A stretch of 13,401 bases of DNA, taken from the IMG/VR virus record IMGVR_UViG_2737471844_000004, positions 1 through 13,401 of that record; one strand, 5' to 3'. Each line of letters opens with the position of its first letter. The stretch's first letter is position 1. Shown piece by piece: positions 1 through 13,401 of this stretch. The translations under genes and the position numbers were made by a program. Source of the DNA: a virus (Duplodnaviria; Heunggongvirae; Uroviricota; Caudoviricetes). The notes below the pieces were generated by a model. That model was not told where the DNA came from, did not search any database, and was given only the letters and a program-made list of their open reading frames with translations.

Positions 1-51
1 ATGTGTTGTAAAATCAGTCGAAGCCTAACAAGTGTGAATGACCTTTTAACC

Positions 52-762
52 ATGACGCAAGTGTTCAATGTTTACTGTGATGAGTCCTGCCATTTAGAAA
101 ATGATGGTCAAAAAGCAATGGTGCTCGGGGCTGTTTGGTGTCCTCTCAATAAGAGGTTTGGTATTGCTAATCGAATACGAGAGATAAAGCTCAAACATGG
201 CTTGGACCCACGTTTTGAAGTCAAATGGACTAAGGTTGGGGCTTCTAAAATTGAGTTTTATAAAGATTTGGTGGATTACTTCTTTGATGATGATGATCTT
301 CATTTCCGGGGATTGGTTATTCCTGACAAAACTCAGCTAAAGCATGATGATTTCGATCAAAGTCATGATGACTGGTACTATAAAATGTATTTTGTCATGT
401 TGAAAACTATTTTTGAGCCAGGAAGTCAATATAGAGTCTTTATTGATATAAAAGATACTCTTGGTCATGAGAAAATACTCAAGTTACATGATGTATTATG
501 TAACAATGCATATGATTTCTCTAGGAAAACAATTTCTAATATTAAGAGAATTAATTCTCATGAAGCTGAGCAATTGCAACTTGCTGATTTATTAATAGGT
601 GCCCTTAGTTATATGCATAGAGGTTTAAATGAAAGTAAGCCAAAACTTTTATTAATTAACAGGATCAGAGAAAGGAGCGGCTATAATCTAACCCAAAATA
701 CTTTGCTTCGAGAGTTAAAGTTTAATCTAATGATCTGGCAATCTAATGGGGGATGTCGATGA
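52..762 (+). CDS. DUF3800-like protein (family call from motif memory); start could instead be ATG at 1
   Basis: ORF 1..762; N-terminal MTQVFNVYCDES and later QLQLADLLIGALSY match the two motifs I recall for DUF3800 (N-terminal DES, C-terminal QxADxL). AT-rich. Stop TGA 760-762 overlaps next start (ATGA). Confidence 0.65.
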   Translation: MTQVFNVYCDESCHLENDGQKAMVLGAVWCPLNKRFGIANRIREIKLKHGLDPRFEVKWTKVGASKIEFYKDLVDYFFDDDDLHFRGLVIPDKTQLKHDDFDQSHDDWYYKMYFVMLKTIFEPGSQYRVFIDIKDTLGHEKILKLHDVLCNNAYDFSRKTISNIKRINSHEAEQLQLADLLIGALSYMHRGLNESKPKLLLINRIRERSGYNLTQNTLLRELKFNLMIWQSNGGCR

Positions 763-1244
763 GTCCGGTTTGGCTACCCGAGCAAATTTTATTAGAACAC
801 TATCAAGGTGAGTGGGAGGCCTACTTTGATAGTGTTTATCAAGCATTCCACCGCGATTTCGTTTTATCTAAACCAGTTTTTCGTGGCGTTCGATTAGGAT
901 TGAAACGTCATCCAGAATATGAAGGTAAATCAGCCACATTCTGGCATATGATTAGCACTGGAAATGTAGAAAGTGAGAGAGTGCCGGATATTCGGCGCTG
1001 CGAAAGAATTAGTTGGCCTAAGCCTGTTATAGATAATAGTACCGATACCTGTTTGAAAGTCTGGGCTGAGCCCAAAGGTAAAAATAGACGTATCCACATT
1101 TGGTTTGAGGATGAGGGATATCTGGTGGTTTTAGATGATAGAGGCGATTTTATGCTTCCATGGACAGCGTTTTATATTGAACATAACCATCAACGAAAGA
1201 AATACAATAAGAGATGGGAAAGACACAATCATAACGGTATTTGA
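759..1244 (+). CDS. Hypothetical protein, translationally coupled partner of the DUF3800-like gene
   Basis: ORF 753..1244; ATG at 759 has GGGGGA 6 nt upstream and overlaps the upstream stop. No recognisable motif. AT-rich like its partner. Confidence 0.6.
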   Translation: MSPVWLPEQILLEHYQGEWEAYFDSVYQAFHRDFVLSKPVFRGVRLGLKRHPEYEGKSATFWHMISTGNVESERVPDIRRCERISWPKPVIDNSTDTCLKVWAEPKGKNRRIHIWFEDEGYLVVLDDRGDFMLPWTAFYIEHNHQRKKYNKRWERHNHNGI

Positions 1245-1548: not shown

Positions 1549-1575
1549 GCAAAAAGCCTTACCCGTAGGCTTAAC
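1549..1575 (-). terminator. Possible intrinsic terminator downstream of the 59-aa gene
   Basis: On the minus strand AAGCCT-acgggta-AGGCTT followed by TTTGC; the stem is short (6 bp). Confidence 0.3.
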
Positions 1576-1611
1576 GTTTGGCTTGGCTGTAGTCTTACCG
1601 TAACGCTCCGC

Positions 1612-1791
1612 TCACCGTCGTGGCCTGTCCGGTTTCTTCCACTGATACGGCCTCACATCATCCTGCTGGTGGCGTTCCTGTTGCAGCACAACGGAAACAG
1701 GCGCTGAACACCTGTTAATTTTGCTTGCTGGTTGTTTGATTTCGGCAATGCTGCGGATCATCTCCAGCATATCGGCTTCGGTGATGGTCAT
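1612..1791 (-). CDS. Small hypothetical protein (59 aa), below the ORF-track cutoff
   Basis: Hand translation of the minus strand: MTITEADMLEMIRSIAEIKQPASKINRCSAPVSVVLQQERHQQDDVRPYQWKKPDRPRR, stop TGA (plus 1612-1614). SD AAGGTG 6 nt upstream of the ATG (plus 1789-1791). Confidence 0.4.
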   Translation of the reverse strand: MTITEADMLEMIRSIAEIKQPASKINRCSAPVSVVLQQERHQQDDVRPYQWKKPDRPRR

Positions 1792-1823
1792 GATTTACAC
1801 CTTAGGAAATCTTAGGGGGCTGG

Positions 1824-2080
1824 TTGACACTTTCCGGCTTAAGACCTTAACAAACCTTAACATCGCAGGTTGACACACTTGACACTTTTTCGCGAAAAAC
1901 CTTATCAAACCTTAGCATTTCTAAGCATGGCAACTTGACACTTTTCGCGATTTTTTTCGGCTTTTTGACGTGGTAAATCTGGCGCAAGGCCAGTAACGGC
2001 GGGGCTTACAGCGAGGTTGACACTTTTTCGCGTTCAGAGTGTAAAGTGTCAACCCGGCAAGCTGCTCAACTTGACACTTT
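1824..2080. repeat. Array of TTGACAC(TTTTTCGCG) motifs with a second ACCTTA(A/T)CAAACCTTA family; candidate packaging-recognition or protein-binding site
   Basis: TTGACAC at 1824, 1870, 1879, 1935, 2017 and 2071, an inverted copy GTGTCAA at 2046-2052, and a TTGACG variant at 1965. Three copies carry the extension TTTT(T)CGCG. CCTTAACAAACCTTAAC at 1844 and CCTTATCAAACCTTAGC at 1891. Spacing is irregular. Lies directly 3' of the TerS-like gene. Confidence 0.6.
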
Positions 2081-2086
2081 TTGATG

Positions 2087-2614
2087 TCATTGATGGTCTG
2101 ATTTTTCCCATTCAGCTAGGGCGTTTAGCCCGGCTTCACTCCATGATTCCAGTTCATCGGCATAATCACCTGCAACATAGCAGAGTTCGCAACGCAGCAT
2201 ACTAATTGCCAGCCTGGCATTACCTCGCAAATTGTATTGTTCAAAGTAATGCTGCCCGTCGCAATCCTCAAGGCAGATAGCACCATCATCAAGAAATTGC
2301 ACTTCCCAGCCTAATTCCCCGGCTGCATCCAGCACACGCTGCTGTATGCCCTCGTCCGTTGCTGGCGCAGGAATTTTACCGTCTCTGGCCTTAACTGCTT
2401 TCCAGAACTCGCCCCACGTCATTTCCAGCGTTCTCTCTGGCCACATTTCAGAAACTGTGTCTTTTCCCTGTGCTGGTGGGCTGTTCCGCTGCTCTGTCGC
2501 TTCCACATCGATTTTTTTACCGGACATGACCACTTCGCCTTTCTCGATCCAGTCGTAAACTGTCTGGCGGCTTACGCCTTTGTGTTTGGCATATTCTGCC
2601 TTACTCATCAGCAT
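2087..2614 (-). CDS. TerS-like / Nu1-like HTH DNA-binding protein with C-terminal Cys4 cluster; candidate packaging-redirecting (Rpp-like) protein
   Basis: ORF 2087..2614. N-terminus MSKAEYAKHKGVSRQTVYDWIEKG has the HTH pattern of small terminase N-termini. C-terminal C-x3-C-x23-C-x2-C (CLEDC ... CELC). Last gene of the operon, 4 nt after the upstream stop. Confidence 0.55.
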   Translation of the reverse strand: MLMSKAEYAKHKGVSRQTVYDWIEKGEVVMSGKKIDVEATEQRNSPPAQGKDTVSEMWPERTLEMTWGEFWKAVKARDGKIPAPATDEGIQQRVLDAAGELGWEVQFLDDGAICLEDCDGQHYFEQYNLRGNARLAISMLRCELCYVAGDYADELESWSEAGLNALAEWEKSDHQ

Positions 2615-2620
2615 TATGAC

Positions 2621-3292
2621 TCACCCTTCTTTTTCCAGTTGAGCCAGCCGCCCGGATATTTCTTCCAGTTTTTCCAGGGCTGGCTTGCAGGCCGCATCAA
2701 TAACGTCCCGGACCATTCCGGCAAGCTGTTCTTCTGCTGTCGGCGTTGTTACTTCCACGCCCGATGGTTTCCCGCCCTTATCCCAAACACCAAGCGGCAC
2801 GAGCGCAACGTGATCGATAAGAAATGGCGTACCCTCAATAAAAAAATTGTCCTCGCCCATTACATCAGGAACTTCTGCCCCACCTGAGGCACCACAAAAC
2901 ACAACCGACGGACTGGTGGATACCTCCCCTCGGGCTTTCTGGATGTAATCGATGATTTCCTGTCCGTAAATCCGGCATACGCCCCACACCTCGTCACCGC
3001 GAATATACGGCAACATGACGGTGCCAATAATGCGCGACCGTTCGCCCACGTCTTCAAGGGTTTTGCTTTCGGGATGGTCGATAATGACGGGTACTCCGGC
3101 GCAACGTTCCAGGAACTGCGGATTGAGATAAGTTTGCGGTGAACGCCAGACAAATTCTTTTTCTTCGGCGCGGTAGGCCATTCCGGTTCCTGTGATACGC
3201 AGGTTAACCAGCCACATGTTGGAAAACTGATAAGGCGACGGTAGCTGTCCGTCCCGAATCTGCTTCGCCGCCTCAATTTCTGTTAAAAGCAT
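2621..3292 (-). CDS. Hypothetical protein; weak prohead-protease-like pattern plus C-terminal coiled-coil-like tail
   Basis: ORF 2621..3292. VPVIIDHPES ... IIGTV ... GEVSTSPSVVF loosely recalls HK97-type prohead protease His and Ser regions; C-terminus PALEKLEEISGRLAQLEKEG looks scaffold-like. Weak RBS. Confidence 0.55.
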   Translation of the reverse strand: MLLTEIEAAKQIRDGQLPSPYQFSNMWLVNLRITGTGMAYRAEEKEFVWRSPQTYLNPQFLERCAGVPVIIDHPESKTLEDVGERSRIIGTVMLPYIRGDEVWGVCRIYGQEIIDYIQKARGEVSTSPSVVFCGASGGAEVPDVMGEDNFFIEGTPFLIDHVALVPLGVWDKGGKPSGVEVTTPTAEEQLAGMVRDVIDAACKPALEKLEEISGRLAQLEKEG

Positions 3293-3356
3293 AATGTTAT
3301 CCGGTTATAAGCAATAAGCCCCGCCAAATCCGGCAGGGCTGAACTCAGCACGTTTT

Positions 3357-3935
3357 TCATGCCCCCGCGAGGCTTGCAACGTTAATTTTGACCAGGCGAC
3401 GGGGAGGGATTTTGAAGGCGTTCAGCCAGACGTTCGGATCTCCCTGATATTCAGTAATACGACGACCAGCTTCATCCATTCTTACGGTTTTACCCAAATG
3501 GCCCGGCGTGTTTTCCACGGCCCACTGAGCACTTTCCTGAGCAGCCTTGTAAATCTGATCTTCCAGCACCGCCAGCGTTGCAGAATCTGAAACGGAACGA
3601 ATATCCACATCACTGAATTTTTTAGCCAGCTTCTGTGCGCCAATTAATGCACGTTTGCGGTAATCCATCGACTTTTCACCAGCAAACGGGGCCGGAGCGC
3701 GACGGCCCATATTGCTGTATGCGGAATCCGCTTTAGCCTGGGCTTCTGCCAGTGAGGATTCATCTTCGACTGACGCGACGATGTTTTGATTAGCGTTATC
3801 CTCTTTTATGAAATCCTGTGCGGGGATCGCATTCAGAATTTCGATAATCTCCTGCGGAGTGCTTCCCTGCGACTCTGACAGAGCGTTAACCACCTCCATC
3901 AGTTTTAATCGCAAATCTTCTTTGCTTGCTGGCAT
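3357..3935 (-). CDS. Hypothetical protein (192 aa from internal ATG), morphogenesis/packaging module by position
   Basis: ORF 3357..3944 opens at GTG; the ATG at plus 3933-3935 follows GAGAGGTGG at good spacing. No family recognised. Confidence 0.6.
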   Translation of the reverse strand: MPASKEDLRLKLMEVVNALSESQGSTPQEIIEILNAIPAQDFIKEDNANQNIVASVEDESSLAEAQAKADSAYSNMGRRAPAPFAGEKSMDYRKRALIGAQKLAKKFSDVDIRSVSDSATLAVLEDQIYKAAQESAQWAVENTPGHLGKTVRMDEAGRRITEYQGDPNVWLNAFKIPPRRLVKINVASLAGA

Positions 3936-3974
3936 TTTTACCACCTCTCTTTTTTCACCAAAAAATCACGACCA

Positions 3975-4148
3975 TCAGGCCGGACGTTCTACGGGATAAA
4001 GCGCCCGCTGCATTAAACGCCGGGCGACCTCATGAATGCTCGGAGCAATCCCCAGCGGAGAATTGCGGCGTTCCTCGTCCTGGATGCGCTGTAATGCTTC
4101 AATCTGATCACGAGCGAGTAAAACGGGTTTCACGCTGGCTTTTCTCAT
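3975..4148 (-). CDS. Small putative DNA-binding protein (RHH-like pattern), first gene of the module
   Basis: ORF 3975..4172; preferred start MRKASVK at 4148 with AGGAGA 7 nt upstream. Pattern beta-strand KPVLLARDQ followed by two helices. Confidence 0.5.
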   Translation of the reverse strand: MRKASVKPVLLARDQIEALQRIQDEERRNSPLGIAPSIHEVARRLMQRALYPVERPA

Positions 4149-4270
4149 AGTCATATCTCCTGAACAAAACAATGATTATGATTGCACAAACTGAAATGAC
4201 GATCTACATCATTGCAATTTATGAAACAATAACGCATGATGATCGCGTTCTTCCCATTGACTTCAATCAC

Positions 4271-4313
4271 CTGCAAAAATAAAACCCGCAACACTTCTGG
4301 CTGCGGGTTTTTT
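4271..4313. terminator. Bidirectional rho-independent terminator
   Basis: AACCCGCA-(11 nt loop)-TGCGGGTT at 4283-4309, flanked by an A-run (4271-4282) on one side and a T-run (4308-4313) on the other, so it has a U-tract on either strand. Confidence 0.7.
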
Positions 4314-4321
4314 ACTGGCAC

Positions 4322-4345
4322 AAAAAAGCCGGGAAAAATCCCGGC
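4322..4345 (-). terminator. Intrinsic terminator directly after the PerC-like gene
   Basis: GCCGGG-aaaaat-CCCGGC at 4328-4345, preceded on the plus strand by A6 (4322-4327), which gives a U-run on the minus-strand transcript. Sits 6 nt past the stop at 4351. Confidence 0.65.
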
Positions 4346-4350
4346 CTCCG

Positions 4351-4638
4351 TCACTGACTGCAATTTTTCGATCCAGGGTATTTCCTGAATGCCTTACCAT
4401 TGGGCTGATGTAATCCCATCCCGGCATGTGCCCGGCTGATGGTTTCGCGCATCTCCCCGAAATTATCCTGCCGTGCTGGTGGGCGTGCTGCCTTGCGGAT
4501 ACATTCCGCGCGACGTTTTGCCGCCTGTTCCCGTGCCTTGTCATCATTCGCCAGCATGATGACCTCAGCCCACCGCGCCGCCGCTCTCCGGTACAGACCA
4601 CGCGCTTCCAGTGCTTCCGCTTTGCTGTCGTGAATCAT
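4351..4638 (-). CDS. PerC-family-like transcriptional regulator
   Basis: ORF 4351..4638. N-terminus MIHDSKAEALEARGLYRRAAARWAEV and KRRAECIRKA match the PerC/Pch signature as I recall it. Start ATG overlaps the FinO-like stop (ATGA). Confidence 0.6.
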   Translation of the reverse strand: MIHDSKAEALEARGLYRRAAARWAEVIMLANDDKAREQAAKRRAECIRKAARPPARQDNFGEMRETISRAHAGMGLHQPNGKAFRKYPGSKNCSQ

Positions 4639-5231
4639 GCGCCTGTTTTCTCCTTTGCTGCCCGGCGCTGACGTTTGCGCTTCTCATTCAGCGCCACCAG
4701 CCGCGTTTCTGCGTCCTGTTGTTCCTGTGGTGTCACCTCGCCGCACGGCTGGCCTTTCAGGTCGTAGCGTACCCCACCAGCCATTAAGGCGCGGTAATAG
4801 CGCGGACACTGCGCATAAGATGCCAGCGTCGCACGTAATGCCCCTGGCCCGAATGCCAGCCCCCTGACGGCGAGATCCTGCATCAGGTCGTCGAATATCC
4901 CCACCTTAAGCGGCTTCGGTGCTTCCCGGCTGAATAATTCAGGCCACAACTCAGTGAGGCGGTTAATGCGCCTGCGGTTTTTTCGCTGCCGTTTGGTCAT
5001 ATGCCGCCACGGTGTCGCCCCTGTGGGCTTCTGCTGCGCTTTCTGGTTACCGGGCATCACTTTATGCGCCGATGTGGTTTTATCCTGCTGCTGCTGCTGC
5101 TGCTGCTGCTGCGCCGCCTGCGTCGTTTTCTGCGGCGTGCCGTAAATGCCTTTCGGTTTTCTGTTAATAGTCAGCTTAGTCATGCTTTGCCCCATCGTTT
5201 TTACTGATTGTTTCATATCCGGTACTTTCAT
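4635..5231 (-). CDS. FinO/ProQ-domain RNA-binding protein with N-terminal poly-Q tract; start codon uncertain
   Basis: ORF 4635..5231. LWPELFSREAPKPLKVGIFDDLMQDL ... YDLKGQPCGEVTPQEQQDAETRL parallels the ProQ N-terminal/FinO domain. Q9 run encoded by the repeat at 5086-5112. No clear SD at the first ATG; internal ATGs are possible starts. Confidence 0.7.
   Translation of the reverse strand: MKVPDMKQSVKTMGQSMTKLTINRKPKGIYGTPQKTTQAAQQQQQQQQQDKTTSAHKVMPGNQKAQQKPTGATPWRHMTKRQRKNRRRINRLTELWPELFSREAPKPLKVGIFDDLMQDLAVRGLAFGPGALRATLASYAQCPRYYRALMAGGVRYDLKGQPCGEVTPQEQQDAETRLVALNEKRKRQRRAAKEKTGA
5086..5112. repeat. Perfect (CTG)9 / (CAG)9 trinucleotide repeat, in frame within the FinO-like CDS
   Basis: Plus strand reads CTG nine times from 5086 to 5112. 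Confidence 0.95.
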
Positions 5232-5236
5232 CTTCT

Positions 5237-5522
5237 GGGTAGAGGGGTAGACGGCGGGTAGATAACAAAAAATAGTCCTCTACCCACTTAACTTAATGAA
5301 AAAAAACAACTTTCACACATTAGGTAGAGGGGTAGACCGTAAAATAGAAAAGTTTGAAACTTACTTTCTTACAATCTGTGTTTTCCTCTCGCTGTATAAA
5401 AAGTTTTTTGAGCGGGGATGTTGTCTACCCCTCTACCCACTTCTCTGAAAGCCTTGTGCTACGAGGGATTCAGCGGGTAGACAATAAAAAATCACCATCT
5501 ACCCTGTGTCTACCCATCTACC
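5237..5522. repeat. Iteron cluster flanking AT-rich spacers; candidate replication origin
   Basis: About 12 copies of GGTAGA(N)/TCTACC in both orientations (5237-5264, 5277-5287, 5321-5338, 5423-5440, 5473-5483, 5497-5522), including the inverted pair AGGTAGAGGGGTAGAC / GTCTACCCCTCTACCC around an AT-rich core. Immediately 3' of the primase-helicase gene. Confidence 0.65.
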
Positions 5523-5539
5523 TGTTACGGGTATTACTC

Positions 5540-7288
5540 TTATAAAAATTCCTCGGTTCTCTCCGTTTGTATAACGTTGGTTTGTATTCGTCCTTTAAAA
5601 CCTCTTGTCAGGTATTCAGCCCCATATTCTCTTGCTGCTGACTTCATGGCCTTACCAAAATCACCGACACTTAATATTTCTTCTTCCCCCATATACTCCA
5701 TAAAGGCGAGATATAGTCTGTACAGGCTTGTACGCGGATTAAGATCAGTTAATCTCTTACCGCCTCCCATCATCATCCCATGCGGTTCATCAAGAAATGC
5801 AAGCGCCGCACATAACCCAATGACAGGATCAGTTTCCTGTTTTATTTTCAGAGCTTCGGCACCGTCGCGCTGCTCCAACAATAATTCCCGTGCTTTTTCT
5901 GGATCGGAAAAGTTAGCCAGTAATCGACGAATAATGACAGGTATTTCCGCCGCTATCTTTTGCGGTAACTCTTTATCCTTTTCGGTCTCCCTTACAATAT
6001 TATCGAACCGAAAAATTACACGTCGACGCGCAACGCCTCCGGCCCGTTCGGTGAATGTCATCGGCACGTTATTTGTTGCCAGCACGACGGACCTGATAAT
6101 TGTTGTGAAACGCTTTTCATATTTCGGGTTAATTTCAACTGGATCTCCACCCGTTATTTTTTTGATGCCGGATCCTTCACCTGTATATTTCGGCTGGTCT
6201 GCCAGGACAATAAGACGACTTCCGACAACCTGCGCACGCCCGCCAGCATCATCAAGCGATGTCATTTCAGCGCTTACCGTGTTCTGTTTCCCTGCCAGAA
6301 GGGTGGCTATGTGCGTGATTGTGCTCTTGCCGCTCCCGCCTTCCCCTGTGGCCTCAATAAACATCTGCCAGTCGTACCGGTTCGCCATAATCATGTACAG
6401 CGCGGCGCATATACGCATCATCTTTCGCGGGTCTTTTCCTGCGGCGTGATCAAGCCATTTATGAAAGTTTGGCGCGTTGTCGCGGATGTTCTCCCCTGGT
6501 ACTGGTGGCGTGTACTCAATGCCGTTATGCGTGGTGATCCAGTTATCCGGCGAGTGCGGGGAAAATTCGCCAGTTTTCATGTCAAGCACGCCATTAGAGA
6601 ACGGCAATAAATCACCTGACGGTTCCCCCATTGGCCTGGCCATAACTTTTAAAGCATCCACAGCATTACTTATTGCTCTCCGACTAAACGATGTTCCGTT
6701 TTCTTCGTAAATAGCCACCATTTCACGACTAAGATCCAGTGTGCTTACCGGAACCCAAAAATCATCGCGCCAGACGTGGACAACCTCACTCTCCTGATTC
6801 ATTGCTACATCCTGAAATCGTTCAGCTAAAAGTTTTGCCCTTTGGCTGTCCGCCATTCTGGAAAGAGATATTTTGTGTTTTTTCTCGGTCCTTCCTGACA
6901 GAATTTCTCCGCGCTCAGCCTGTTCGCGGATCCGTTGCAGGTAGTCGCGCCAGTTCTCCGGTTCCTGGTCGGTGATGCCTTTGTATAATTTCGCCTCCTG
7001 TACGCCAGCCAGCGCCAGCTTTTCAGCGATAGTATTGATCTGGATTGGCTCTATCTCCCCCGCGATATAGACACGCGCAAAACGGCGTTTCTCGTCAATA
7101 ATGCGGATATTCGCCAGGTCTGCCAGTTGCTTTGGCCCCAGGTAAACAGGAGGCACGTTATCGCCGTGTTTTCGTCCTTCACTTTCAATCCAGTGTTGAG
7201 CATGGGCGTAAGCATCCGTCCCGGCAAAAATGATTACCTCAGTGAATTTATCCTTCGGCTGATATTTTAGACTCGGTGCGTTTTTCAC
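5540..7288 (-). CDS. Primase / SF3 (D5-like) helicase replication initiator, P4 alpha-like
   Basis: ORF 5540..7288, 582 aa. Walker A GEGGSGKST, Walker B-like LIVLAD, motif C VLATNN. GTG start overlaps upstream stop (GTGA) with GGGAGG 6 nt upstream. Confidence 0.85.
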   Translation of the reverse strand: MKNAPSLKYQPKDKFTEVIIFAGTDAYAHAQHWIESEGRKHGDNVPPVYLGPKQLADLANIRIIDEKRRFARVYIAGEIEPIQINTIAEKLALAGVQEAKLYKGITDQEPENWRDYLQRIREQAERGEILSGRTEKKHKISLSRMADSQRAKLLAERFQDVAMNQESEVVHVWRDDFWVPVSTLDLSREMVAIYEENGTSFSRRAISNAVDALKVMARPMGEPSGDLLPFSNGVLDMKTGEFSPHSPDNWITTHNGIEYTPPVPGENIRDNAPNFHKWLDHAAGKDPRKMMRICAALYMIMANRYDWQMFIEATGEGGSGKSTITHIATLLAGKQNTVSAEMTSLDDAGGRAQVVGSRLIVLADQPKYTGEGSGIKKITGGDPVEINPKYEKRFTTIIRSVVLATNNVPMTFTERAGGVARRRVIFRFDNIVRETEKDKELPQKIAAEIPVIIRRLLANFSDPEKARELLLEQRDGAEALKIKQETDPVIGLCAALAFLDEPHGMMMGGGKRLTDLNPRTSLYRLYLAFMEYMGEEEILSVGDFGKAMKSAAREYGAEYLTRGFKGRIQTNVIQTERTEEFL

Positions 7289-7575
7289 TTCTTACCTCCC
7301 GCAACCAACATTGCCCGGATTTTTTTTATATTCGTGGCTGCACGTCTCGCCACTGCCTGTTGTTTGTTTTCCACCAGAATAAAATCACGATCAAACTGAC
7401 GGCGCGGCATTACGCAGTCATATTCGTAAGCCTCACGGCGGTAGGTGATATTGCCTGGCGTAACGTGACGAATAACCACCCGTCCCCCGCGTCTGGTGTC
7501 CCGGAAAATATCACCGGGGCGGATTTCAGGCCGAGAGAGGCCGCTGGCAGTAAAGCCAGAATTTTTCTTTTTCAT
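7285..7575 (-). CDS. Hypothetical basic protein (96 aa)
   Basis: ORF 7285..7575; ATG 4 nt after the upstream stop; coupled to the primase gene. Confidence 0.6.
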   Translation of the reverse strand: MKKKNSGFTASGLSRPEIRPGDIFRDTRRGGRVVIRHVTPGNITYRREAYEYDCVMPRRQFDRDFILVENKQQAVARRAATNIKKIRAMLVAGGKK

Positions 7576-7579
7576 GGTT

Positions 7580-7780
7580 TTATTTTCCTGTCAGCAGTTC
7601 CGGTTTTATTTCCGCACGAATACAAAGTTCAGAAAAAAATTCAGGAGAACCAACAATCTCATTACTTTTCAGTCGGCATTGTGATTTCACTTTCCCTTTA
7701 TCCAGGTAAACCAGTACGCGTCCGGTGAAATCATCTGGCACATTAAGCACTACGGGTACATGCACTTCATGATTATGCAT
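7580..7780 (-). CDS. Small hypothetical protein (66 aa), FTGR-motif family
   Basis: ORF 7580..7780; GGAGGATG SD; start ATGCATAA overlaps upstream stop. Shares DDFTGRVLVYLDKGKV ... PEF motif with both halves of the 7999..8364 protein. Confidence 0.6.
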   Translation of the reverse strand: MHNHEVHVPVVLNVPDDFTGRVLVYLDKGKVKSQCRLKSNEIVGSPEFFSELCIRAEIKPELLTGK

Positions 7781-8006
7781 GGCTTACATCCTCCGTGAAT
7801 TTTCTTCTGTAACGCGCCTCTGCCACATATTCCGCATAGTCCGACGCAATACTAAGAATCATTTCACCCTCTGACTTGTAGCCACTGGTATTGATAAGAA
7901 AATATGCAGCTTTCATCATGTCAGCAACGCTCAACAATGCGCCCGATGTATCTTCCGGTGCGCCATCAAATTCCCGTTTCAGGGAATTAAAACGATCATC
8001 ACGCAT
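7773..8006 (-). CDS. Small hypothetical protein (77 aa)
   Basis: ORF 7773..8006; G-rich SD; start ATGCGTGA overlaps upstream stop by 8 nt. Confidence 0.6.
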   Translation of the reverse strand: MRDDRFNSLKREFDGAPEDTSGALLSVADMMKAAYFLINTSGYKSEGEMILSIASDYAEYVAEARYRRKFTEDVSHA

Positions 8007-8364
8007 GTTTACCCCCCTGAATGACCTGATAACCGCAACTGGTCAGCAACTCGATAAATTCCGGCAGTGTGCCGAAACAGCAATCATCACGCAGCCGTTC
8101 GCAGGATACCTCGACGCCGTTTTCGTAGTGACTCACCATACGTCCGGTAAAATGCAGATCATCATCGTGATGGCTCGTTGACGGCTTAATCAGTCGCGCA
8201 CGTTCCGCCAGTTCCAGCAATGCTTCAACGCTTCCGGCAATTGCACCATCCGGCAGGTGGTAATTACGCACTATGCGCCCGTTCTCCACATGGACCAGTA
8301 GCTGCCCGGTAAATTTCTCGTCAAACTGAATGCTGTTAAGGTCAGAAATTGACAGGTTATGCAT
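7999..8364 (-). CDS. Hypothetical protein with internal tandem duplication of an FTG(Q/R)-x-LV-x-x-E-N-G motif domain
   Basis: ORF 7999..8382; preferred start MHNLSIS at 8364 with AGGAGG upstream, overlapping the upstream stop (ATGCATAA). FTGQLLVHVENGRIV and FTGRMVSHYENGVEV repeat within the protein. Confidence 0.6.
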   Translation of the reverse strand: MHNLSISDLNSIQFDEKFTGQLLVHVENGRIVRNYHLPDGAIAGSVEALLELAERARLIKPSTSHHDDDLHFTGRMVSHYENGVEVSCERLRDDCCFGTLPEFIELLTSCGYQVIQGGKHA

Positions 8365-8581
8365 GGTGCACCTCCTGCACATCAGCCATGATAATTTTTC
8401 CGGCCTTATCCAGTGCCTGATCGGCTTTTAGCTGCACAAATGCTAAATAATGGGAGATGCATTCTGATTCTCTGGCTGCGTGTTTATGCGCCACACCAGC
8501 GATAGCAGAAATCTCAATAAGTGAATCCATCAGCGTTTTGATAGCGTCTACCGCTGCATCAGGCCATGTTGCATTACACAT
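8357..8581 (-). CDS. Small hypothetical protein (74 aa)
   Basis: ORF 8357..8581; AGGAGGTGG SD; start ATGTGTAA overlaps upstream stop by 8 nt. Confidence 0.6.
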   Translation of the reverse strand: MCNATWPDAAVDAIKTLMDSLIEISAIAGVAHKHAARESECISHYLAFVQLKADQALDKAGKIIMADVQEVHHA

Positions 8582-8939
8582 GTTCCACCTCCTGGCGAAT
8601 ACGGGCGGCGAATACCATCACGCAGCCATCAGGAGATTGCTGACGTGCTTCCTGTTCGCTGGTGGCCTCGATGTGAATTACGCGCGGTTGTGCCGTGCTC
8701 AGGGCGATAAAACGCCAGATAAAATTGTTCTCGCATTTCTGAATAAACAGCGTGTTTTCTTCGCGCCCTTTCCATGTTGCCGAGATATAGCCCATGTCAT
8801 TGAGCATCTCGCAGGCATCAACCAGCGTATCAGCAGCTACGTGTACAGTGTTTTTACCGTCAGCTATGCAATCACGGTGCACCGCCAGGAAGGTGTATAT
8901 AAATTTAGGGTGAGTTTGGGTATGCTGTGTTCCAGCCAT
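8574..8939 (-). CDS. Hypothetical protein (121 aa), first gene of the leftward operon
   Basis: Internal ATG (plus 8937-8939) of the long minus-strand open frame, with GAGGT 7 nt upstream and a promoter/operator region immediately 5'. Natural-looking sequence MAGTQHTQTHPKFIYTF... Confidence 0.6.
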   Translation of the reverse strand: MAGTQHTQTHPKFIYTFLAVHRDCIADGKNTVHVAADTLVDACEMLNDMGYISATWKGREENTLFIQKCENNFIWRFIALSTAQPRVIHIEATSEQEARQQSPDGCVMVFAARIRQEVEHV

Positions 8940-9028
8940 AATCGTTACCTCATTTAACGGTTTGGTTAGACGCCCCGCTACTGCCGCAAACAGTTCGGGG
9001 CGTTGTCGTTTACATCCTCTTACTGAGG

Positions 9029-9104
9029 TGTGATTTAAATTAAATTTAACTGAATCACAGGTCAAGTATTTTTTGTGATTCTTTTTTGTGTATACTGAAT
9101 CACA
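9029..9104. promoter_or_regulatory. Divergent promoter region with two TGTGATT-N17-AATCACA operator-like palindromes
   Basis: Palindromes at 9029-9059 and 9074-9104. Plus-strand -10-like TATACT at 9091-9096 lies inside the second; minus-strand -35 TTGACC (9060-9065) and -10 TAATTT (9037-9042) overlap the first. Confidence 0.55.
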
Positions 9105-9126
9105 TCTTTTGTTTAGGAGAATGCAC

Positions 9127-9432
9127 ATGGCAAAAAACACTATCAACGACAAATCAAAACAGATTTCAATTCGTATCCCACATGATGCTTTTGAAGGCAT
9201 GGAATCCGTAAAACTGGACGGTGAAAGCAACGCCGGATTCATAGTAACCGCCATGCGCGGTGAGATCGCCCGCCGCCAGGCAGAAGGAAGCGGAGAAAAT
9301 CCCCTGGTTTCTTCGCTCGATGCGCTGGCGCAGGTGGAAAAAATCGGAGTCAAAGCTGCCGAGGAGATCGGGCAGCTCGTCACCGTCGCACGTGAAGAAC
9401 TCCAGCGCCGCAAGGCCAAAGAATCAGAATAA
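9127..9432 (+). CDS. Small putative DNA-binding regulator (RHH-like); candidate island repressor
   Basis: ORF 9088..9432; ATG at 9127 with AGGAGA 6 nt upstream. Pattern ISIRIP (beta), HDAFEGMESVKL, NAGFIVTAMRGEIARR (helices). The only plus-strand gene in the backbone. Confidence 0.65.
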   Translation: MAKNTINDKSKQISIRIPHDAFEGMESVKLDGESNAGFIVTAMRGEIARRQAEGSGENPLVSSLDALAQVEKIGVKAAEEIGQLVTVAREELQRRKAKESE

Positions 9433-9667
9433 TAACTATCATCGCCGTGGTGTGAGGAACTCCGGCGCATTGCTTTACAGGTACACAGAATGACCAACAA
9501 AGAATCAACCAATACACCATCACCGGCACGGAAAAGACGGCGCAGAAAGATAGAGCACGAATCAGAAAGATTCGCGCCATGTGCTTTTGCCCTTGAGCAA
9601 TTCCTTAAAGAGTACAGGCGCACAAAAATGGGATCGCATACCTGGAAAACATCGCGGCATGGCAATG

Positions 9668-10106
9668 TTAAAGAGCATGAATAGCCCACCAGCAAGCCAG
9701 CACACTGATCACATTGCCCACCAGCCGCAAATCTGGCATTGTTGGCAATGTGTTCAAGTGTGTAGCTTTCCCACTGGTGGCCCTCTGCAGTCGCCTTTGT
9801 TTTATCCAGAACGAAATCAGACATCAGATTGATCAGCACCTGGTGACCTGACAAAATCGCATCAGTCACGCCACCAGCAAAATTTTTTGCTTTCCGGACA
9901 GCGTGGCCAACGGCATTTTGCAGCGAAATATTCTGCATTTCTGGCGTGCTGTAGTAACGGTGATCAGTGCCTTCACTCTGTGCGACCACAACGCTATAAT
10001 CTGCCTCGTAGACAGTAAGCAATATGGCGCAGTAGGCTATTCGTTCACAAAGGCGCTCCGGCAACGGGGCGCTTTCTCTTTTTGTAACGGTCAGAGCGTT
10101 ACACAT
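9668..10106 (-). CDS. Hypothetical ORF with well-defined 5' end but unresolved 3' end; possibly frameshifted
   Basis: ATG at 10106 overlaps the AntA-like stop by 8 nt (ATGTGTAA) and starts MCNA like the gene at 8581. First ~130 aa look protein-like, then Cys/Ser-rich junk; no in-frame stop until 8574. An alternate frame ends at plus 9668. Confidence 0.3.
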
Positions 10107-10899
10107 GGCTGTTTTCCTCCATGCGACGGGCTAACCAACGCTGCGAAAGGCGAATTAATTCAGCTTTCCGCTGGTGGTAGTCCTGGCCTAACTCAATCAG
10201 CGTGATATTGCTCTGCTCAAGGTAAGAAAGGTGCTCAAGCTGCAACACGCTCATGTGGTCGCGTGGTTCACCTGTAATGCCGTTCGCCTGCGCCCACTGT
10301 TTTGCAGTCATGCCACCCAGCACGATACGCGCCAGCATGTTCGCTTCCGTGGTGTAGTGGTGCTGGAGTGTGTTTTTACCCAGTTCAGCCCGGTACGCCT
10401 CCAGCGCGGCACACATTGGCTTAAAGTAGCTGGCAACTGTGATACGGGCTTTCAGTTCCCGGCGTAACGCTGCGGAACGTACAGGCGCAACCTTGTGTAG
10501 CTCCTCCTCGCATTTGATAAAGTACTGACGAACGGCGCGCCCCTGTTCGGTGCGCTCGACCATCGCCAGTTCTTTCGCCATGTTGATAGTGCTCAGGTAG
10601 TCGTGCTCTACACGTTGGCGAGATTTTGCGCTCACCGGATTGGGGGAGGTCAAATTTTCTACGAATTCAAAATCCACGCCCTTTTTAAATCCGTACTCAT
10701 CAATGCGTCCTTTAATCCAAGTTGTGAAATCACGCTTCACACCCAGCGCCTTATGCAACGCTCTGGCGCTAACAATATTGGTTTCACGCCCGCCAATAAC
10801 GCCGGAAATAACCGGGATAATTTCGCCGAAATTTTGTTGGCTCTGGTTTTCAGGCCGAACGAAGCCCTGCCCCTGTACGGGCGTTTTTCGCAGTTTCAT
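10099..10899 (-). CDS. AntA/AntB-type phage antirepressor-like protein
   Basis: ORF 10099..10899. IPVISGVIGGRETNIVSARALHKALGVKRDFTTWIKGRIDEYGF ... MAKELAMVERTEQGRAVRQYFIKCEEEL matches the AntA N-terminal pattern I recall. SD AGGAG 5 nt upstream. Confidence 0.6.
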   Translation of the reverse strand: MKLRKTPVQGQGFVRPENQSQQNFGEIIPVISGVIGGRETNIVSARALHKALGVKRDFTTWIKGRIDEYGFKKGVDFEFVENLTSPNPVSAKSRQRVEHDYLSTINMAKELAMVERTEQGRAVRQYFIKCEEELHKVAPVRSAALRRELKARITVASYFKPMCAALEAYRAELGKNTLQHHYTTEANMLARIVLGGMTAKQWAQANGITGEPRDHMSVLQLEHLSYLEQSNITLIELGQDYHQRKAELIRLSQRWLARRMEENSHV

Positions 10900-10977
10900 A
10901 AAAACTCCTGCTATCGAATTAAGTTACTTTTTATTTGCTGGTGGATAGCTGGGGCTTCTGGCCCCGTAGCTGTTTTA

Positions 10978-11196
10978 TCAGGCTGATGTGTTTCGGCGTT
11001 CTTCCAGCCAGCGATTAACCTCTACCGCATCGAATGCAGTGCTTTTCTCACCCAGTTTGATGGGCTTAGGCATCTTCCCGCTACGCACCCAACGATCGAG
11101 CGTTGATAAGCTGGTACCCAGCAATTCAGCCAGGCGATAGCGGCGGATATAGCCAGTTGCAGGGATTGCGGTTTGAAGTATTGGTTGGTTTTTCAT
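10978..11196 (-). CDS. alpA: AlpA-family DNA-binding regulator (excisionase-like)
   Basis: ORF 10978..11289; probable start MKNQPIL at 11196. RRYRLAELLGTSLSTLDRWVRSGKMPKPIKLG ... VEVNRWLEERR is the typical AlpA signature. Confidence 0.8.
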   Translation of the reverse strand: MKNQPILQTAIPATGYIRRYRLAELLGTSLSTLDRWVRSGKMPKPIKLGEKSTAFDAVEVNRWLEERRNTSA

Positions 11197-11308
11197 ATGC
11201 CCCATTACCTTTGTTGTTGGTTTGTGATTCGTAATAGGGGCATTAAATAACAAATGAAATGATGTGTGTGTGAGTTTTAGAAAAAACACTGTGACTTTTC
11301 TTATTTCA

Positions 11309-12091
11309 CTATCTAAAACGCTCTCGCCAGCTTTTCCAAGTGTTCTTATCTGGTTGTGGGATTACAATGCCTTTTTGAGCACCTATTTGTGCAATTTTTT
11401 TATTTAACTTGTTAGGCGGCAAAGATATTATCTCATTGTCTGTTAATCCGGCAATTCTTAATAATCCATATATCATTTTAAATTGATGTATTGTTAATCT
11501 TGGTAACTTGTGATTTTCTTTTTTTATAGTGTTGTTTATGGAGTAAATTGGAAATCCATTTGTTATTGATTTATAAAGGTTGTCAATGTGCTCTCTGGTT
11601 ATTAATAATGAATCAGGTGTAATCTTAATGTTGCCGCTTGTTTTTGCATGGCATGAAAAAATAAATGTGGGATTCGCAGTGCGACGTGAAAGCGGTATGG
11701 ATGTATTCATAGAGATAGTTTTGTTTCTTACTATAGTCTCTTGAATATCAAAAACTCCAGAAACCTTTGCCTCAAAAATAACACCATTTTCTTTTATTTC
11801 ATCACTATATTCATGAATAATTATGCCAAGAGAGGAAATTTCTTTTTTGATGAGAAAAGAAATAAAATCAATATAGTCTTCATCCTTTGGCCATGTAAAA
11901 TCACGATAACCAAAATACCCCTCACAGTAAGCATTTTTTATTTTTGTGGCAAAATTAATTCTGTTAATATCCTGCCAATGCCATAAATCATCTATCTCAC
12001 ATTCTAAAATTTGAGCTGCTCTATCTAAAGAGCAGAATTCTAATGGAGGTAATTGTTTTTTTTGCCATATTGTTTCATTAATATTTGTCAT
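11309..12091 (-). CDS. Hypothetical protein (260 aa), AT-rich orphan cargo gene between int and alpA
   Basis: ORF 11309..12091. Markedly AT-rich with Asn/Ile/Lys-rich protein composition, unlike the flanking int and alpA. No motif recognised; weak RBS. Confidence 0.6.
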   Translation of the reverse strand: MTNINETIWQKKQLPPLEFCSLDRAAQILECEIDDLWHWQDINRINFATKIKNAYCEGYFGYRDFTWPKDEDYIDFISFLIKKEISSLGIIIHEYSDEIKENGVIFEAKVSGVFDIQETIVRNKTISMNTSIPLSRRTANPTFIFSCHAKTSGNIKITPDSLLITREHIDNLYKSITNGFPIYSINNTIKKENHKLPRLTIHQFKMIYGLLRIAGLTDNEIISLPPNKLNKKIAQIGAQKGIVIPQPDKNTWKSWRERFR

Positions 12092-12147: not shown

Positions 12148-13401
12148 TTATTTATTAGATTGCGTGATGTCAGAACATATCATGTTTTCTAAATTCACCA
12201 GCAAATCAGTCCACTGTGCCAGCGCCGCTTTGCGCTCATCAAAATATTGATGGCGGTTATAAATGCCCTCTACGCCTTTTATGCGGTGGTTAAGGCATCG
12301 TTCAGCAACGATCGGGTCAACTCCCAATGCTGCTAAATGTGTTCGTGCTGTTCGCCGGAAGTCGTGAATTGTAAAGTTGGGGACGTTCGGCATTTCTGCT
12401 CTGACTTTTGCCAATGCAACAGGAAGGGTGCTTTCCTGGATGTGAGGGATCATTCTGTGCTGCATTTTTCTGGCAGGTAATACCCATGCGCTATTGCATG
12501 AAAATGTGTGCAATTCTCGCAACCATTCTATGGTCGCTGGTGGTAATGGTATGTCGATAGCATCGCCATTTTTAGTTCGTTGTTCTGGTAGATGCCAAAT
12601 CGCGCCATCTAAGTCGAATTCATCCCACCTGGCGGCGCATAACTCCATTTTTCTGACACACAATGCTAAGAGCAACTTAAAGGTTAATTCGTTCTGGCGG
12701 CTGAATCCTTTGGCTTTACGCATGGCCTGAAAAAATTGGATTAATTCGTCACGGTTCAGCCAGCGATCACGAGATAATTCTTTCCCACCAGCATCTGATA
12801 CTTCAAAAGCTGAGCAGGGGTTAACCTCCAAAGCAAGGCGTTTAATACCGTAGTCAAATATTCGACGTGTCCACCGAAGAACGTCAGTAGCAATTGTTGG
12901 AGCGCCTCTATCAACAATGCTTTTAAGCATGGCATCAATATGGCGTGGTTTTACATCTTCAACCTTCATGTGGCCTATGGCAGGATTTATGTCTTTATCA
13001 ATGCGCCTGCGGAGAATATCTGGGTGTTTCCATCGGGGAAGTATTTGCCGTGCAAAGTATTCGGCGGCAAGTTCAGAAACATGCAGCGCGTTTTTTTCAG
13101 CTTCTATTTTTGCCAGTGCTTCGGCTTTACGCTGCTGTTTTTCTGCGGCTACGTCATATCCCAAAGCAACTCGTGCGGAAAGTTCTTTTGCCAGTTCCCT
13201 GGCTTTTGATAACGATAATTCAGAATATGAACCAATAAGCATGGCACGAGATTTTCCTGCCAGTTTATATCGAAACCGCCATGTCGGGGATCTATCCACC
13301 TCTCTATACCGGAGATATAGCCCACCACCATCAGCACGACCTTCGAAATGTTCTCCGGCTTTTATCCATGCGCGGATCTGCATATCTGTGAGTTTTGGCA
13401 T
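12148..13401 (-). CDS. int: P4-type tyrosine integrase (site-specific recombinase)
   Basis: ORF 12148..13401, 417 aa. N-terminus MPKLTDMQIRAWIKAGEH...DGGGLYLRY and C-terminal HDFRRTARTHLAALG...ERCLNH...IYNRHQY carry the R...HxxR...Y catalytic signature. ATG sits exactly at the window edge. Confidence 0.95.
   Translation of the reverse strand: MPKLTDMQIRAWIKAGEHFEGRADGGGLYLRYREVDRSPTWRFRYKLAGKSRAMLIGSYSELSLSKARELAKELSARVALGYDVAAEKQQRKAEALAKIEAEKNALHVSELAAEYFARQILPRWKHPDILRRRIDKDINPAIGHMKVEDVKPRHIDAMLKSIVDRGAPTIATDVLRWTRRIFDYGIKRLALEVNPCSAFEVSDAGGKELSRDRWLNRDELIQFFQAMRKAKGFSRQNELTFKLLLALCVRKMELCAARWDEFDLDGAIWHLPEQRTKNGDAIDIPLPPATIEWLRELHTFSCNSAWVLPARKMQHRMIPHIQESTLPVALAKVRAEMPNVPNFTIHDFRRTARTHLAALGVDPIVAERCLNHRIKGVEGIYNRHQYFDERKAALAQWTDLLVNLENMICSDITQSNK

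What the first reader, a model, noticed from the sequence alone, without database searches (positions are those of the whole stretch)
5237..5522. Iteron-rich candidate origin immediately downstream of the primase-helicase
About twelve GGTAGA(N) heptamers in both orientations, including a 16-bp inverted pair, flank AT-rich spacers. Iterons around an AT-rich core placed directly 3' of the replication initiator gene is the arrangement described for SaPI origins. The FinO-like gene starts right at the edge of this cluster, so origin and promoter functions may overlap.
Basis: partly seen in the sequence, partly recalled or inferred. Interest (0 to 1): 0.45.

Follow-up and report, generated by a model that had tools for sequence, protein, structure and literature searches.

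The report
Replication origin of an E. coli PICI
The repeat cluster is real and is almost certainly the replication origin of a phage-inducible chromosomal island (a phage satellite) of E. coli, built from the same GGTAGA repeats as the experimentally tested origin of the island EcCICFT073, so it is an ordinary member of a known kind.

Summary
Observation confirmed: exactly 12 GGTAGA hexamers lie in 5238-5522, out of 16 in the window, where about 3 are expected by chance in the whole window. The 12 form six mirror pairs, all centred on coordinate 5380, around an 86-bp core of 34% GC.

The window is a Gram-negative PICI. All genes are on the minus strand: int, alpA, antA-like, DUF4222, Pri-Rep, this cluster, ProQ/FinO-like, PerC, packaging genes.

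The Pri-Rep gene is 70% identical to that of EcCICFT073. The published EcCICFT073 ori fragment carries 11 copies of the same GGTAGA unit directly after its gene. Removing that fragment impaired pri-dependent plasmid maintenance (PMC6092414).

In a 78%-identical relative, iteron bases are 71/72 conserved against 70.5% elsewhere. More distant initiators carry different repeats at the same place. The Pri-Rep C-terminus matches the P4 alpha origin-binding domain (1KA8).

Two side claims are not:
- The ProQ gene starts at 5183, not 5231, and no promoter-like site is present.
- A primase domain is not demonstrable.

Minor new details: exact dyad symmetry, and arm order circularly permuted relative to EcCICFT073. 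Low interest; new member of a known kind.

The parts
5540..7288 (-). Pri-Rep initiator gene (582 aa). It has an N-terminal domain of unknown function (aa 1-143), a D5_N domain (151-281), an SF3-type helicase (DUF5906, 314-420) and a C-terminal winged-helix origin-binding domain (486-576).
   Evidence: Pfam. 7OLA helicase match, E 1.8e-13, and 1KA8 (P4 alpha origin-binding domain), E 8e-9 and 6e-10. 70% identical to EcCICFT073 Pri-Rep. PHROGs for the N-terminus.
5424..5522 (.). Pri-proximal iteron arm with six iterons: TCTACC at 5424 and 5432; GGTAGA at 5476; TCTACC at 5498, 5509 and 5517.
   Evidence: It is the mirror image of the other arm about coordinate 5380.
5338..5423 (.). Central AT-rich core (GC 0.34) between the two inner iteron doublets. 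It is the candidate melting region. The least stable 30-mer of the intergenic region is 5340-5371.
   Evidence: nearest-neighbour dG of -31.7 against a window mean of -40.2 (sd 3.9).
5238..5337 (.). Pri-distal iteron arm with six iterons: GGTAGA at 5238, 5246 and 5257; TCTACC at 5279; GGTAGA at 5323 and 5331.
5285..5322 (.). A-tract spacer (GC 0.24) inside the distal arm. It is conserved in all architectures, including EcCICFT073, and is a second candidate for the melting or bending site.
5445..5473 (.). Imperfect inverted repeat (hairpin) inside the proximal arm, at the position mirroring the A-tract spacer. It is degenerate here and perfect in the cq9-type relatives.
   Evidence: z -1.9 here and z -9.1 in L002; alignment with one compensatory T:A to A:T change.
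5216..5234 (.). Conserved flank TATCCGGTACTTTCATCTT. It travels with the ori module in E. coli relatives. It contains the ATG at 5231 that the longest ORF call takes as the ProQ start.
   Evidence: homology to cq9 resumes at 5216. The flank is absent in Citrobacter.
4635..5183 (-). Neighbouring ProQ/FinO-family gene, not part of the origin. Its true start is the ATG at 5183, 55 bp from the nearest iteron.
   Evidence: Pfam ProQ, E 9e-24. RefSeq start in the identical JNU locus. The same start and leader appear in cq9 and E. ruysiae behind different upstream DNA.

Best explanation
The cluster at 5238-5522 is the vegetative replication origin (ori) of a Gram-negative phage-inducible chromosomal island (PICI) of E. 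coli.

Proposed mechanism:
1. After induction of the island, the Pri-Rep protein encoded just upstream (5540-7288, minus strand) is made.
2. Its C-terminal winged-helix domain recognises the GGGTAGA iterons.
3. [quoted passage not shown]
4. The AT-rich DNA between the arms melts, and the helicase loads itself without DnaA.
5. Replication then proceeds with host polymerase. Priming is by host primase or by an unproven activity of the N-terminal domain.

Shown here:
- The repeats, their statistics and their symmetry.
- The island context.
- Homology of the initiator and of the iterons to the tested EcCICFT073 replicon.
- Selective conservation of the iterons.
- Association of the repeats with the rep gene rather than with the downstream gene.
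- Homology of the C-terminus to the P4 alpha origin-binding domain.

Inferred: binding, hexamer loading, the site of melting and the source of primers.
For: 1. Twelve of the window's 16 GGTAGA copies fall in 285 bp, against 2.9 expected in the whole window.

2. The gene order on the minus strand is the Gram-negative PICI layout described in PMC6092414: int, alpA, antA, DUF4222, Pri-Rep, cluster, ProQ, PerC, DUF2213, terS-like. The same island sits at tRNA-Thr/proA in E. coli JNU.

3. EcCICFT073 Pri-Rep is 70% identical. Its ori holds 11 GGTAGA copies, which are all the copies near that gene. Primers rep-2cNotI and rep-3cNotI show that the pri-ori and pri-delta-ori plasmids differ by exactly this segment. 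Deleting it significantly reduced pri-dependent plasmid maintenance (Fig. 2b text).

4. Against the 78%-identical cq9 ori, iteron columns are 71/72 identical and other columns 182/258, Fisher p = 1e-8. Several 1-bp indels rule out coding.

5. The repeats follow the initiator, not the downstream gene.
- GGTAGA clusters follow the gene in Shigella, E. ruysiae (55% identity), Citrobacter and about 80 IMG/VR contigs, with different downstream genes.
- More distant relatives carry other repeats at the same place: Morganella TGTTCA x11, Serratia GTGAACAG, Aeromonas CAGTGCC.
- A RepA-helicase remnant in cq9 is followed by its own AGTGAGG cluster.

6. Pri-Rep aa 486-576 aligns end to end with the P4 alpha origin-binding domain 1KA8 (E 6e-10). 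Residues 224-440 align with the SaPI5 PriRep helicase 7OLA.

7. The layout matches the SaPI rule quoted in PMC9371898: 6-12 iterons directly after rep, half on each side of an AT-rich centre, and inner iterons pointing in opposite directions.

8. There is no DnaA box or IHF consensus in the region. This fits a self-loading initiator.
Against: - No experiment exists on this particular sequence. Function is inferred from a 70%-identical initiator whose origin has a different arm order.
- In the published test, deleting the EcCICFT073 ori reduced colony numbers but did not abolish them.
- The central core (GC 0.34) is not the most AT-rich DNA in the window. In EcCICFT073 the equivalent core is flanked by iterons on one side only, so the melting site is uncertain.
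- The structure model of Pri-Rep was too poor to use (pLDDT 45).
- No recognisable primase domain was found.
Confidence: 0.9

Rival explanations
1. The repeats are operator sites for a transcription regulator (for example AlpA, PerC or another island protein). They would control a promoter for the downstream ProQ-PerC-packaging genes and would not be an origin.
For: The cluster lies upstream of the ProQ/FinO-like gene in the same orientation. Palindromic arrays of short sites are typical of operators.
Against: - No sigma-70-like promoter is found in 5000-5700 on either strand.
- Gram-negative PICIs are described as transcribed unidirectionally as an operon.
- The repeats stay attached to the pri-rep stop codon when the downstream gene differs (EcCICFT073, L038, Citrobacter) or is 900 bp away (cq9).
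- The repeat sequence changes with the initiator lineage.
- The homologous segment is needed for pri-dependent plasmid maintenance.
Confidence: 0.04
2. The cluster is a DNA packaging signal (pac or cos-like) recognised by the island's small-terminase-like protein.
For: PICIs carry packaging signals. A terS-like HTH protein is encoded at 2087-2614.
Against: - No lambda cosN-like sequence is present in the window.
- The repeats co-vary with the rep gene, not with the packaging genes. EcCICFT073 has capsid and decoration genes and is packaged through helper cos sites, yet it carries the same iterons.
- The cluster position is fixed to the rep stop codon.
Confidence: 0.02
3. The cluster is an origin by descent but is inactive in this copy: a relic in a decaying island.
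For: The hairpin element in the proximal arm is degenerate here compared with relatives. This ori type is rare, found in 10 of 5,426 complete E. coli genomes.
Against: - All 12 iteron cores are intact and exactly symmetric.
- Pri-Rep is a full-length ORF identical to a protein seen on 47 contigs.
- The int, alpA and packaging genes are intact ORFs.
- The iterons are under clear purifying selection.
Confidence: 0.04

Closest known systems
Replication origin of the E. coli PICI EcCICFT073 (Fillol-Salom et al. 2018, ISME J, PMC6092414)
   Same: - The same iteron core GGTAGA.
- The same position directly after a homologous Pri-Rep gene (70% identity).
- The same arm modules: a doublet, a ~40-bp spacer, a single inverted iteron, a 16-nt T/A-run, then a triplet.
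- The same island type.
   Different: - The arm order is circularly permuted. Reading from the pri-rep stop, this window has >>> < >> | 93 bp core | << > <<<. EcCICFT073 has << > <<< | 31 bp | >> < >>, followed by half of the core and then the next gene.
- The count is 12 iterons here against 11.
- The downstream gene is ProQ/FinO-like here, and a small hypothetical gene plus SSB there.
SaPI origins of Staphylococcus aureus (Rep / PriRep with iterons; summarised in PMC9371898)
   Same: - 6-12 short iterons lie directly 3' of the initiator gene.
- Half lie on each side of an AT-rich centre, with the inner iterons in opposite orientation.
- The initiator is a self-loading SF3 helicase with a C-terminal winged-helix domain. 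The helicase region matches SaPI5 PriRep 7OLA at E 1.8e-13.
   Different: - The host phylum, iteron sequence and island regulation (AlpA, unidirectional operon) all differ.
- Only the helicase core is detectably homologous.
Phage-plasmid/satellite P4 alpha protein with ori and crr
   Same: - The C-terminal origin-binding domain is homologous (1KA8, E 6e-10).
- The D5_N/SF3 helicase core is of the same family (TIGR01613 'P4 family').
- Both use short iterons.
   Different: - From my own knowledge, P4 uses TGTTCACC iterons in two separate loci, ori and crr. Neither abuts the alpha stop codon.
- From my own knowledge, alpha (777 aa) has a defined N-terminal primase.
- Here there is one cluster next to the gene, the iteron is GGTAGA, no second cluster exists in the window, and no recognisable primase domain was found.

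Membership tests
Gram-negative PICI replication origin (Fillol-Salom 2018) | Lies immediately 3' of the island's replication initiator (pri-rep) gene. | tested here: met
   The stop codon is at 5540-5542. The first iteron is at 5517-5522 and the last at 5238.
Gram-negative PICI replication origin (Fillol-Salom 2018) | Two sets of iterons flank an AT-rich region. | tested here: met
   Six iterons lie on each side of the 86-bp core at 5338-5423, GC 0.34.
Gram-negative PICI replication origin (Fillol-Salom 2018) | The host element is a PICI: int, alpA, unidirectional gene order, pri-rep and packaging or interference genes, about 10-15 kb in size. | tested here: met
   Pfam and PHROG assignments fit, and all genes are on the minus strand. 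The identical island lies next to tRNA-Thr in JNU. The att sites lie outside the window.
Gram-negative PICI replication origin (Fillol-Salom 2018) | Sequence homology to an experimentally tested member. | tested here: met
   The iteron and arm modules are the same as in EcCICFT073 ori, L003 8740-9042. Pri-Rep is 70% identical.
Gram-negative PICI replication origin (Fillol-Salom 2018) | The pri-rep plus ori segment drives autonomous replication, and deleting the ori impairs it. | not testable with these tools
   This has been shown only for EcCICFT073.
SaPI-type self-loading Rep/ori system | The initiator is an SF3 or SF6 helicase carrying a C-terminal winged-helix domain that reads the iterons. 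| tested here: met
   Sequence matches to 7OLA (helicase) and 1KA8 (winged-helix origin-binding domain). Binding itself was not tested.
P4 ori/crr system | TGTTCACC type iterons sit in two separated loci (ori and crr), bound by alpha. | tested here: not met
   The iteron is GGTAGA. There is a single cluster, and the other four GGTAGA copies in the window are isolated.
P4 ori/crr system | The initiator carries an N-terminal primase domain. | tested here: inconclusive
   Residues 1-143 have no Pfam hit even at E 10 and match only phrog_2850, of unknown function. Primase-annotated PHROGs align only from aa ~133-150 onward. The AF2 model was too poor for a fold search.
Classical iteron plasmid oriV (RepA, pi or TrfA type) | DnaA boxes and an IHF site accompany the iterons. 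| tested here: not met
   No TTATCCACA at up to 1 mismatch and no WATCAANNNNTTR within 5184-5539.

The most novel reading that the evidence does not exclude
Two alleles of the same initiator family read the same GGTAGA iteron, but their origins have circularly permuted arms.

- Window type: the triplets are outermost and the doublets face a 93-bp core.
- EcCICFT073 type: the triplets are back to back, 31 bp apart.

In the window type, all 12 sites are exactly mirror-symmetric about one point although the spacers are not palindromic. One-bp indels in one arm are matched in the other arm in diverged relatives: gaps of 8,11,22,44,8|93|8,44,22,11,8 against 8,11,23,44,9|92|9,44,23,11,9.

If this geometry is functional, it records how two hexamers with six winged helices each are measured onto DNA. 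The two natural architectures would then give a direct test of head-to-head versus tail-to-tail loading of self-loading SF3 helicases. PMC9371898 states that this question is open.
Probability: 0.25. Interest if true: 0.4.

Novelty: new member of a known kind. Interest (0 to 1): 0.15.

Why it matters
It marks where this island starts copying itself after a helper phage induces it. It also identifies the island as a PICI-type satellite with a self-contained replicon.

Practical consequences:
- The window-type and EcCICFT073-type islands share the iteron, which predicts cross-recognition between their initiators and origins. That would affect how the two island types behave in one cell.
- The exact symmetry and the permuted arms offer a cheap natural experiment on helicase loading geometry.

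Beyond that, the finding repeats what was published in 2018.

Tried and rejected
- **Known RNA families.** The Rfam scan of the whole window at gathering thresholds, and of 5100-5650 at E<=1, gave no match. There are no tRNAs.
- **Promoter or terminator.** No sigma-70-like site was found. The two terminator-like hairpins are on the + strand, antisense to the genes, and occur at chance level.
- **DnaA box, IHF consensus, lambda cosN.** None in the region.
- **Small + strand ORFs across the cluster (5296-5448, 5354-5545).** Rejected as coding, because the alignment with cq9 has several 1-bp indels.
- **Structure of Pri-Rep.** The AF2 run on a 13-sequence alignment gave pLDDT 45 and pTM 0.26. The available homologues are all at least 70% identical. 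No fold search was run on this model.
- **Hairpin in the proximal arm as a conserved structure.** It is strong in cq9 (z -9.1), weak here (z -1.9) and not significant in EcCICFT073 (z -0.8). One compensatory change was seen. This is too little to call.
- **Search for later papers on Gram-negative PICI origins.** The held library contains nothing beyond PMC6092414. Fig. 2a of that paper lists iteron sequences of several E. coli PICIs but could not be read, so this exact ori type may already be drawn there.

Full report
**The observation**

The region was read directly. GGTAGA occurs 16 times in the 13,401-bp window counting both strands, and 12 of these lie between 5238 and 5522. Dinucleotide-preserving shuffles of the whole window give 2.94 on average and never more than 7. 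The 7-mer GGGTAGA occurs 10 times, all inside the cluster, against 0.79 expected.

On the + strand the unit reads GGTAGA at 5238, 5246, 5257, 5323, 5331 and 5476. It reads TCTACC at 5279, 5424, 5432, 5498, 5509 and 5517.

**Anatomy**

The 12 sites form six mirror pairs, and every pair is centred on exactly 5380.0. Read from the stop codon of the upstream gene, the orientation string is >>> < >> | core | << > <<<. The start-to-start gaps are 8, 11, 22, 44, 8 | 93 | 8, 44, 22, 11, 8.

The arms are not simple palindromes. Without gaps only 61 of 109 positions match between one arm and the reverse complement of the other, and most of those are the iterons themselves. The 44-bp spacer is an A-tract of 24% GC in one arm (5285-5322). 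In the other arm it is a 53% GC imperfect hairpin (5438-5475). The 16-nt spacers (5263-5278 and 5482-5497) are A-runs in the same direction in both arms.

The central core 5338-5423 has 34% GC. It holds the least stable 30-mer of the intergenic region, at 5340-5371, with dG -31.7 against a window mean of -40.2 and sd 3.9.

**Context**

All genes around the cluster are on the minus strand:

| Coordinates | Assignment |
|---|---|
| 12148-13401 | tyrosine integrase |
| 11309-12091 | low-GC ORF of unknown function |
| 10978-11289 | AlpA |
| 10099-10899 | AntA-like |
| within 8574-10106 | Icd-like segment |
| 7285-7575 | DUF4222 |
| 5540-7288 | 582-aa D5_N/DUF5906 protein (Pri-Rep) |
| 5238-5522 | the iteron cluster |
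| 4635-5183 | ProQ/FinO family |
| 4351-4638 | PerC |
| 2621-3292 | DUF2213 |
| 2087-2614 | terS-like HTH protein |

This is the layout of Gram-negative phage-inducible chromosomal islands described by Fillol-Salom et al. 2018 (PMC6092414). Window positions 1550-10982 are 98.8% identical to an island next to tRNA-Thr and proA in E. coli JNU, and the ori region is 100% identical.

**Link to a tested origin**

The supplement of PMC6092414 contains a primer for the EcCICFT073 pri deletion that reads ...CAGGTAGACAGGGTAGACAG.... I fetched that locus from CFT073 as L003.

- Its Pri-Rep is 70% identical to the window's protein over the full length.
- The 290 bp after its stop codon hold 11 GGTAGA copies.
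- The reverse primers of the published pri-ori and pri-delta-ori plasmids map to L003 ~8740 and ~9043. The two constructs therefore differ by exactly the iteron segment.
- The paper reports that plasmid maintenance at the restrictive temperature needed rep and was significantly reduced by the ori deletion.

The window's cluster is thus the homologue of an origin with experimental support.

**Comparative evidence**

*Iterons are selectively conserved.* A 78%-identical version of the ori occurs in six pig and baboon E. coli genomes, for example cq9 (L002). In the pairwise alignment, iteron columns are 71/72 identical and all other columns 182/258 (70.5%), Fisher p = 1e-8. Several 1-bp indels exclude a coding function for the + strand ORFs that cross the region.

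*The repeats follow the initiator gene, not the downstream gene.*
- The downstream gene is ProQ here.
- It is a small hypothetical gene and SSB in CFT073 and L038, and other small genes in Citrobacter.
- In cq9, 900 bp of foreign DNA separate the ori from ProQ.

*The repeat sequence changes with the initiator lineage.* GGTAGA persists down to 55% protein identity in E. ruysiae, where the unit is TTGGTAGACAG. Relatives at 42-51% identity carry other repeats at the same place:
- TGTTCA x11 in Morganella.
- GTGAACAG in Serratia.
- CAGTGCC x5 in Aeromonas.

The foreign insert in cq9 is a RepA-helicase pseudogene followed by its own AGTGAGG cluster. This shows that rep and ori move together as modules.

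**Two architectures**

About 80 IMG/VR contigs and the genome loci fall into two classes that track the Pri-Rep allele.

- *Window class.* Pri-Rep is at least 88% identical to the window's. This class has the symmetric arrangement described above.
- *EcCICFT073 class.* Pri-Rep is about 70% identical. The same two arms appear in swapped order: << > <<< | 31-32 bp | >> < >>. The first half of the core follows, and then the next gene.

The second arrangement is a circular permutation of the first. A tandem duplication followed by trimming would produce it.

Within the window class, the cq9 and Citrobacter subtypes have gaps of 8, 11, 23, 44, 9 | 92 | 9, 44, 23, 11, 9. One-bp insertions in one arm are therefore mirrored in the other. 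The window-type ori is rare, found in 10 of 5,426 complete E. coli genomes. The primer sequence from the pri-proximal end of the EcCICFT073 ori is found in 286.

**The initiator**

- Residues 224-440 match the helicase of SaPI5 PriRep (7OLA, E 1.8e-13).
- Residues 486-576 align end to end with the P4 alpha origin-binding winged-helix domain (1KA8, E 8e-9, and 6e-10 for the isolated domain).
- Residues 1-143 have no Pfam match even at E 10 and match only phrog_2850, of unknown function.
- PHROG families annotated as primase align only from residue ~133-150 onward, to their C-terminal halves.

The label 'primase' seems to come from the 'P4 family primase C-terminal domain' model (TIGR01613), which matches residues 228-490, the D5_N-helicase region. 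A primase activity is not shown. An AlphaFold model from the available shallow alignment was too poor to use (pLDDT 45).

**Mechanism**

The best-supported reading is the SaPI/PICI model summarised in PMC9371898:
1. The winged-helix domains of a self-loading SF3 helicase bind the iterons on both sides of an AT-rich stretch.
2. The DNA melts without ATP.
3. Two hexamers load.

Here there are six sites per arm, which equals the number of winged helices in a hexamer. This numerology is my inference.

The absence of DnaA boxes and IHF consensus sites fits a host-initiator-independent origin. Which AT-rich stretch melts is open. The central core is the least stable, but only the A-tract spacer and the first half of the core are present in both architectures.

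The longest ORF for the ProQ-like gene starts at 5231, 7 bp from the first iteron. RefSeq starts the identical gene at the ATG corresponding to 5183. The leader CAGTAAAAACGATGGGGCAAAGCATG is conserved between the window and cq9, and its 3' part (AACGATGGGGCAAAGCATG) also in E. ruysiae. The DNA upstream of it is unrelated in all three contexts.

The ATG at 5231 lies in the block TATCCGGTACTTTCATCTT. In cq9 this block stays with the ori, 900 bp away from ProQ. The gene therefore starts 55 bp beyond the cluster.

No sigma-70-like promoter and no minus-strand terminator were found between pri-rep and ProQ. This is consistent with read-through transcription of the island operon. An overlap of origin and promoter is not supported, though it is not excluded.

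**Rivals**

- An operator array for the downstream genes, a packaging site, and an inactive relic were considered. The evidence for and against each is given in the rival section. Together I give them about 0.1.
- No known RNA family matches the region.

**Novelty and score**

The kind is known and has been tested in a close relative with the same iteron. Fig. 2a of the 2018 paper, which I could not see, may even include this ori type.

What I add is descriptive: the exact dyad symmetry, the mirrored indels, the permuted arm order between alleles, the corrected ProQ start, and the lack of a recognisable primase domain. I rate it a new member of a known kind with interest 0.15.

Noticed in passing
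window 5085-5111 (minus-strand gene 4635-5183): A (CTG)9 run encodes a poly-glutamine tract in the ProQ/FinO-like protein. The otherwise near-identical JNU island has 6 units, and the cq9 homologue has essentially none (QEQ). It is a length-polymorphic triplet repeat inside a putative RNA chaperone gene.
   Followed up: partly
window 1-762 and 753-1244 (+ strand): This is a low-GC (0.31-0.43) two-gene cargo at the end of the island. It has strong matches to the PADLOC candidate defence pair PDC-M04A (E 8e-98; Pfam DUF3800) and PDC-M04B (E 9e-74). It is absent from the JNU copy of the island, which carries an orc1/cdc6-family gene there.
   Followed up: partly
L002 (E. coli cq9) 8130-9012: Between the GGTAGA ori and the ProQ gene lies the 3' part of a RepA-family helicase pseudogene. 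It is followed by its own cluster of AGTGAGG/CCTCACT repeats (7 exact copies) in very AT-rich DNA. This is a remnant of a second, different rep-ori module and evidence that these modules are exchanged as units.
   Followed up: partly
window 5445-5473; L002 9231-9263; L037 3316-3348: An inverted repeat occupies the 44-bp spacer of the pri-proximal arm. It is perfect with 14 bp in cq9 (z -9.1) and keeps pairing in Citrobacter through a T:A to A:T double change. It is degenerate in the window, with 3 mismatches (z -1.9). It is not followed by a T-run on either strand. Its function is unknown.
   Followed up: partly
window 6860-7288 (Pri-Rep residues 1-143): The N-terminal domain of the so-called primase has no Pfam match and matches only phrog_2850, of unknown function. 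The AF2 model suggests an alternating beta-alpha fold with moderate local confidence (pLDDT 60-84). Whether it primes DNA synthesis is open.
   Followed up: partly
window 8574-10106 (minus strand): A 510-aa ORF has family support only in its last 44 residues (Icd-like, E 8e-22). RefSeq annotates the 98.8%-identical JNU region as a 121-aa Icd-like gene plus two small + strand genes (YlcI/YnfO family and a hypothetical). Positive AT skew at 9150-9750 also argues that most of the long ORF is not real.
   Followed up: partly
window 11309-12091 (minus strand): A 260-aa ORF with GC about 0.30 lies between int and alpA. It has no match in Pfam, NCBIfam or PADLOC. It is probably accessory cargo at the usual PICI hotspot.
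   Followed up: no
L006 (Morganella morganii) 4410-4710: Eleven TGTTCA repeats lie directly after a 51%-identical Pri-Rep homologue. The unit resembles the TGTTCACC iteron I recall for phage P4. Serratia relatives (L010, L017, L035) carry GTGAACAG.
   Followed up: no
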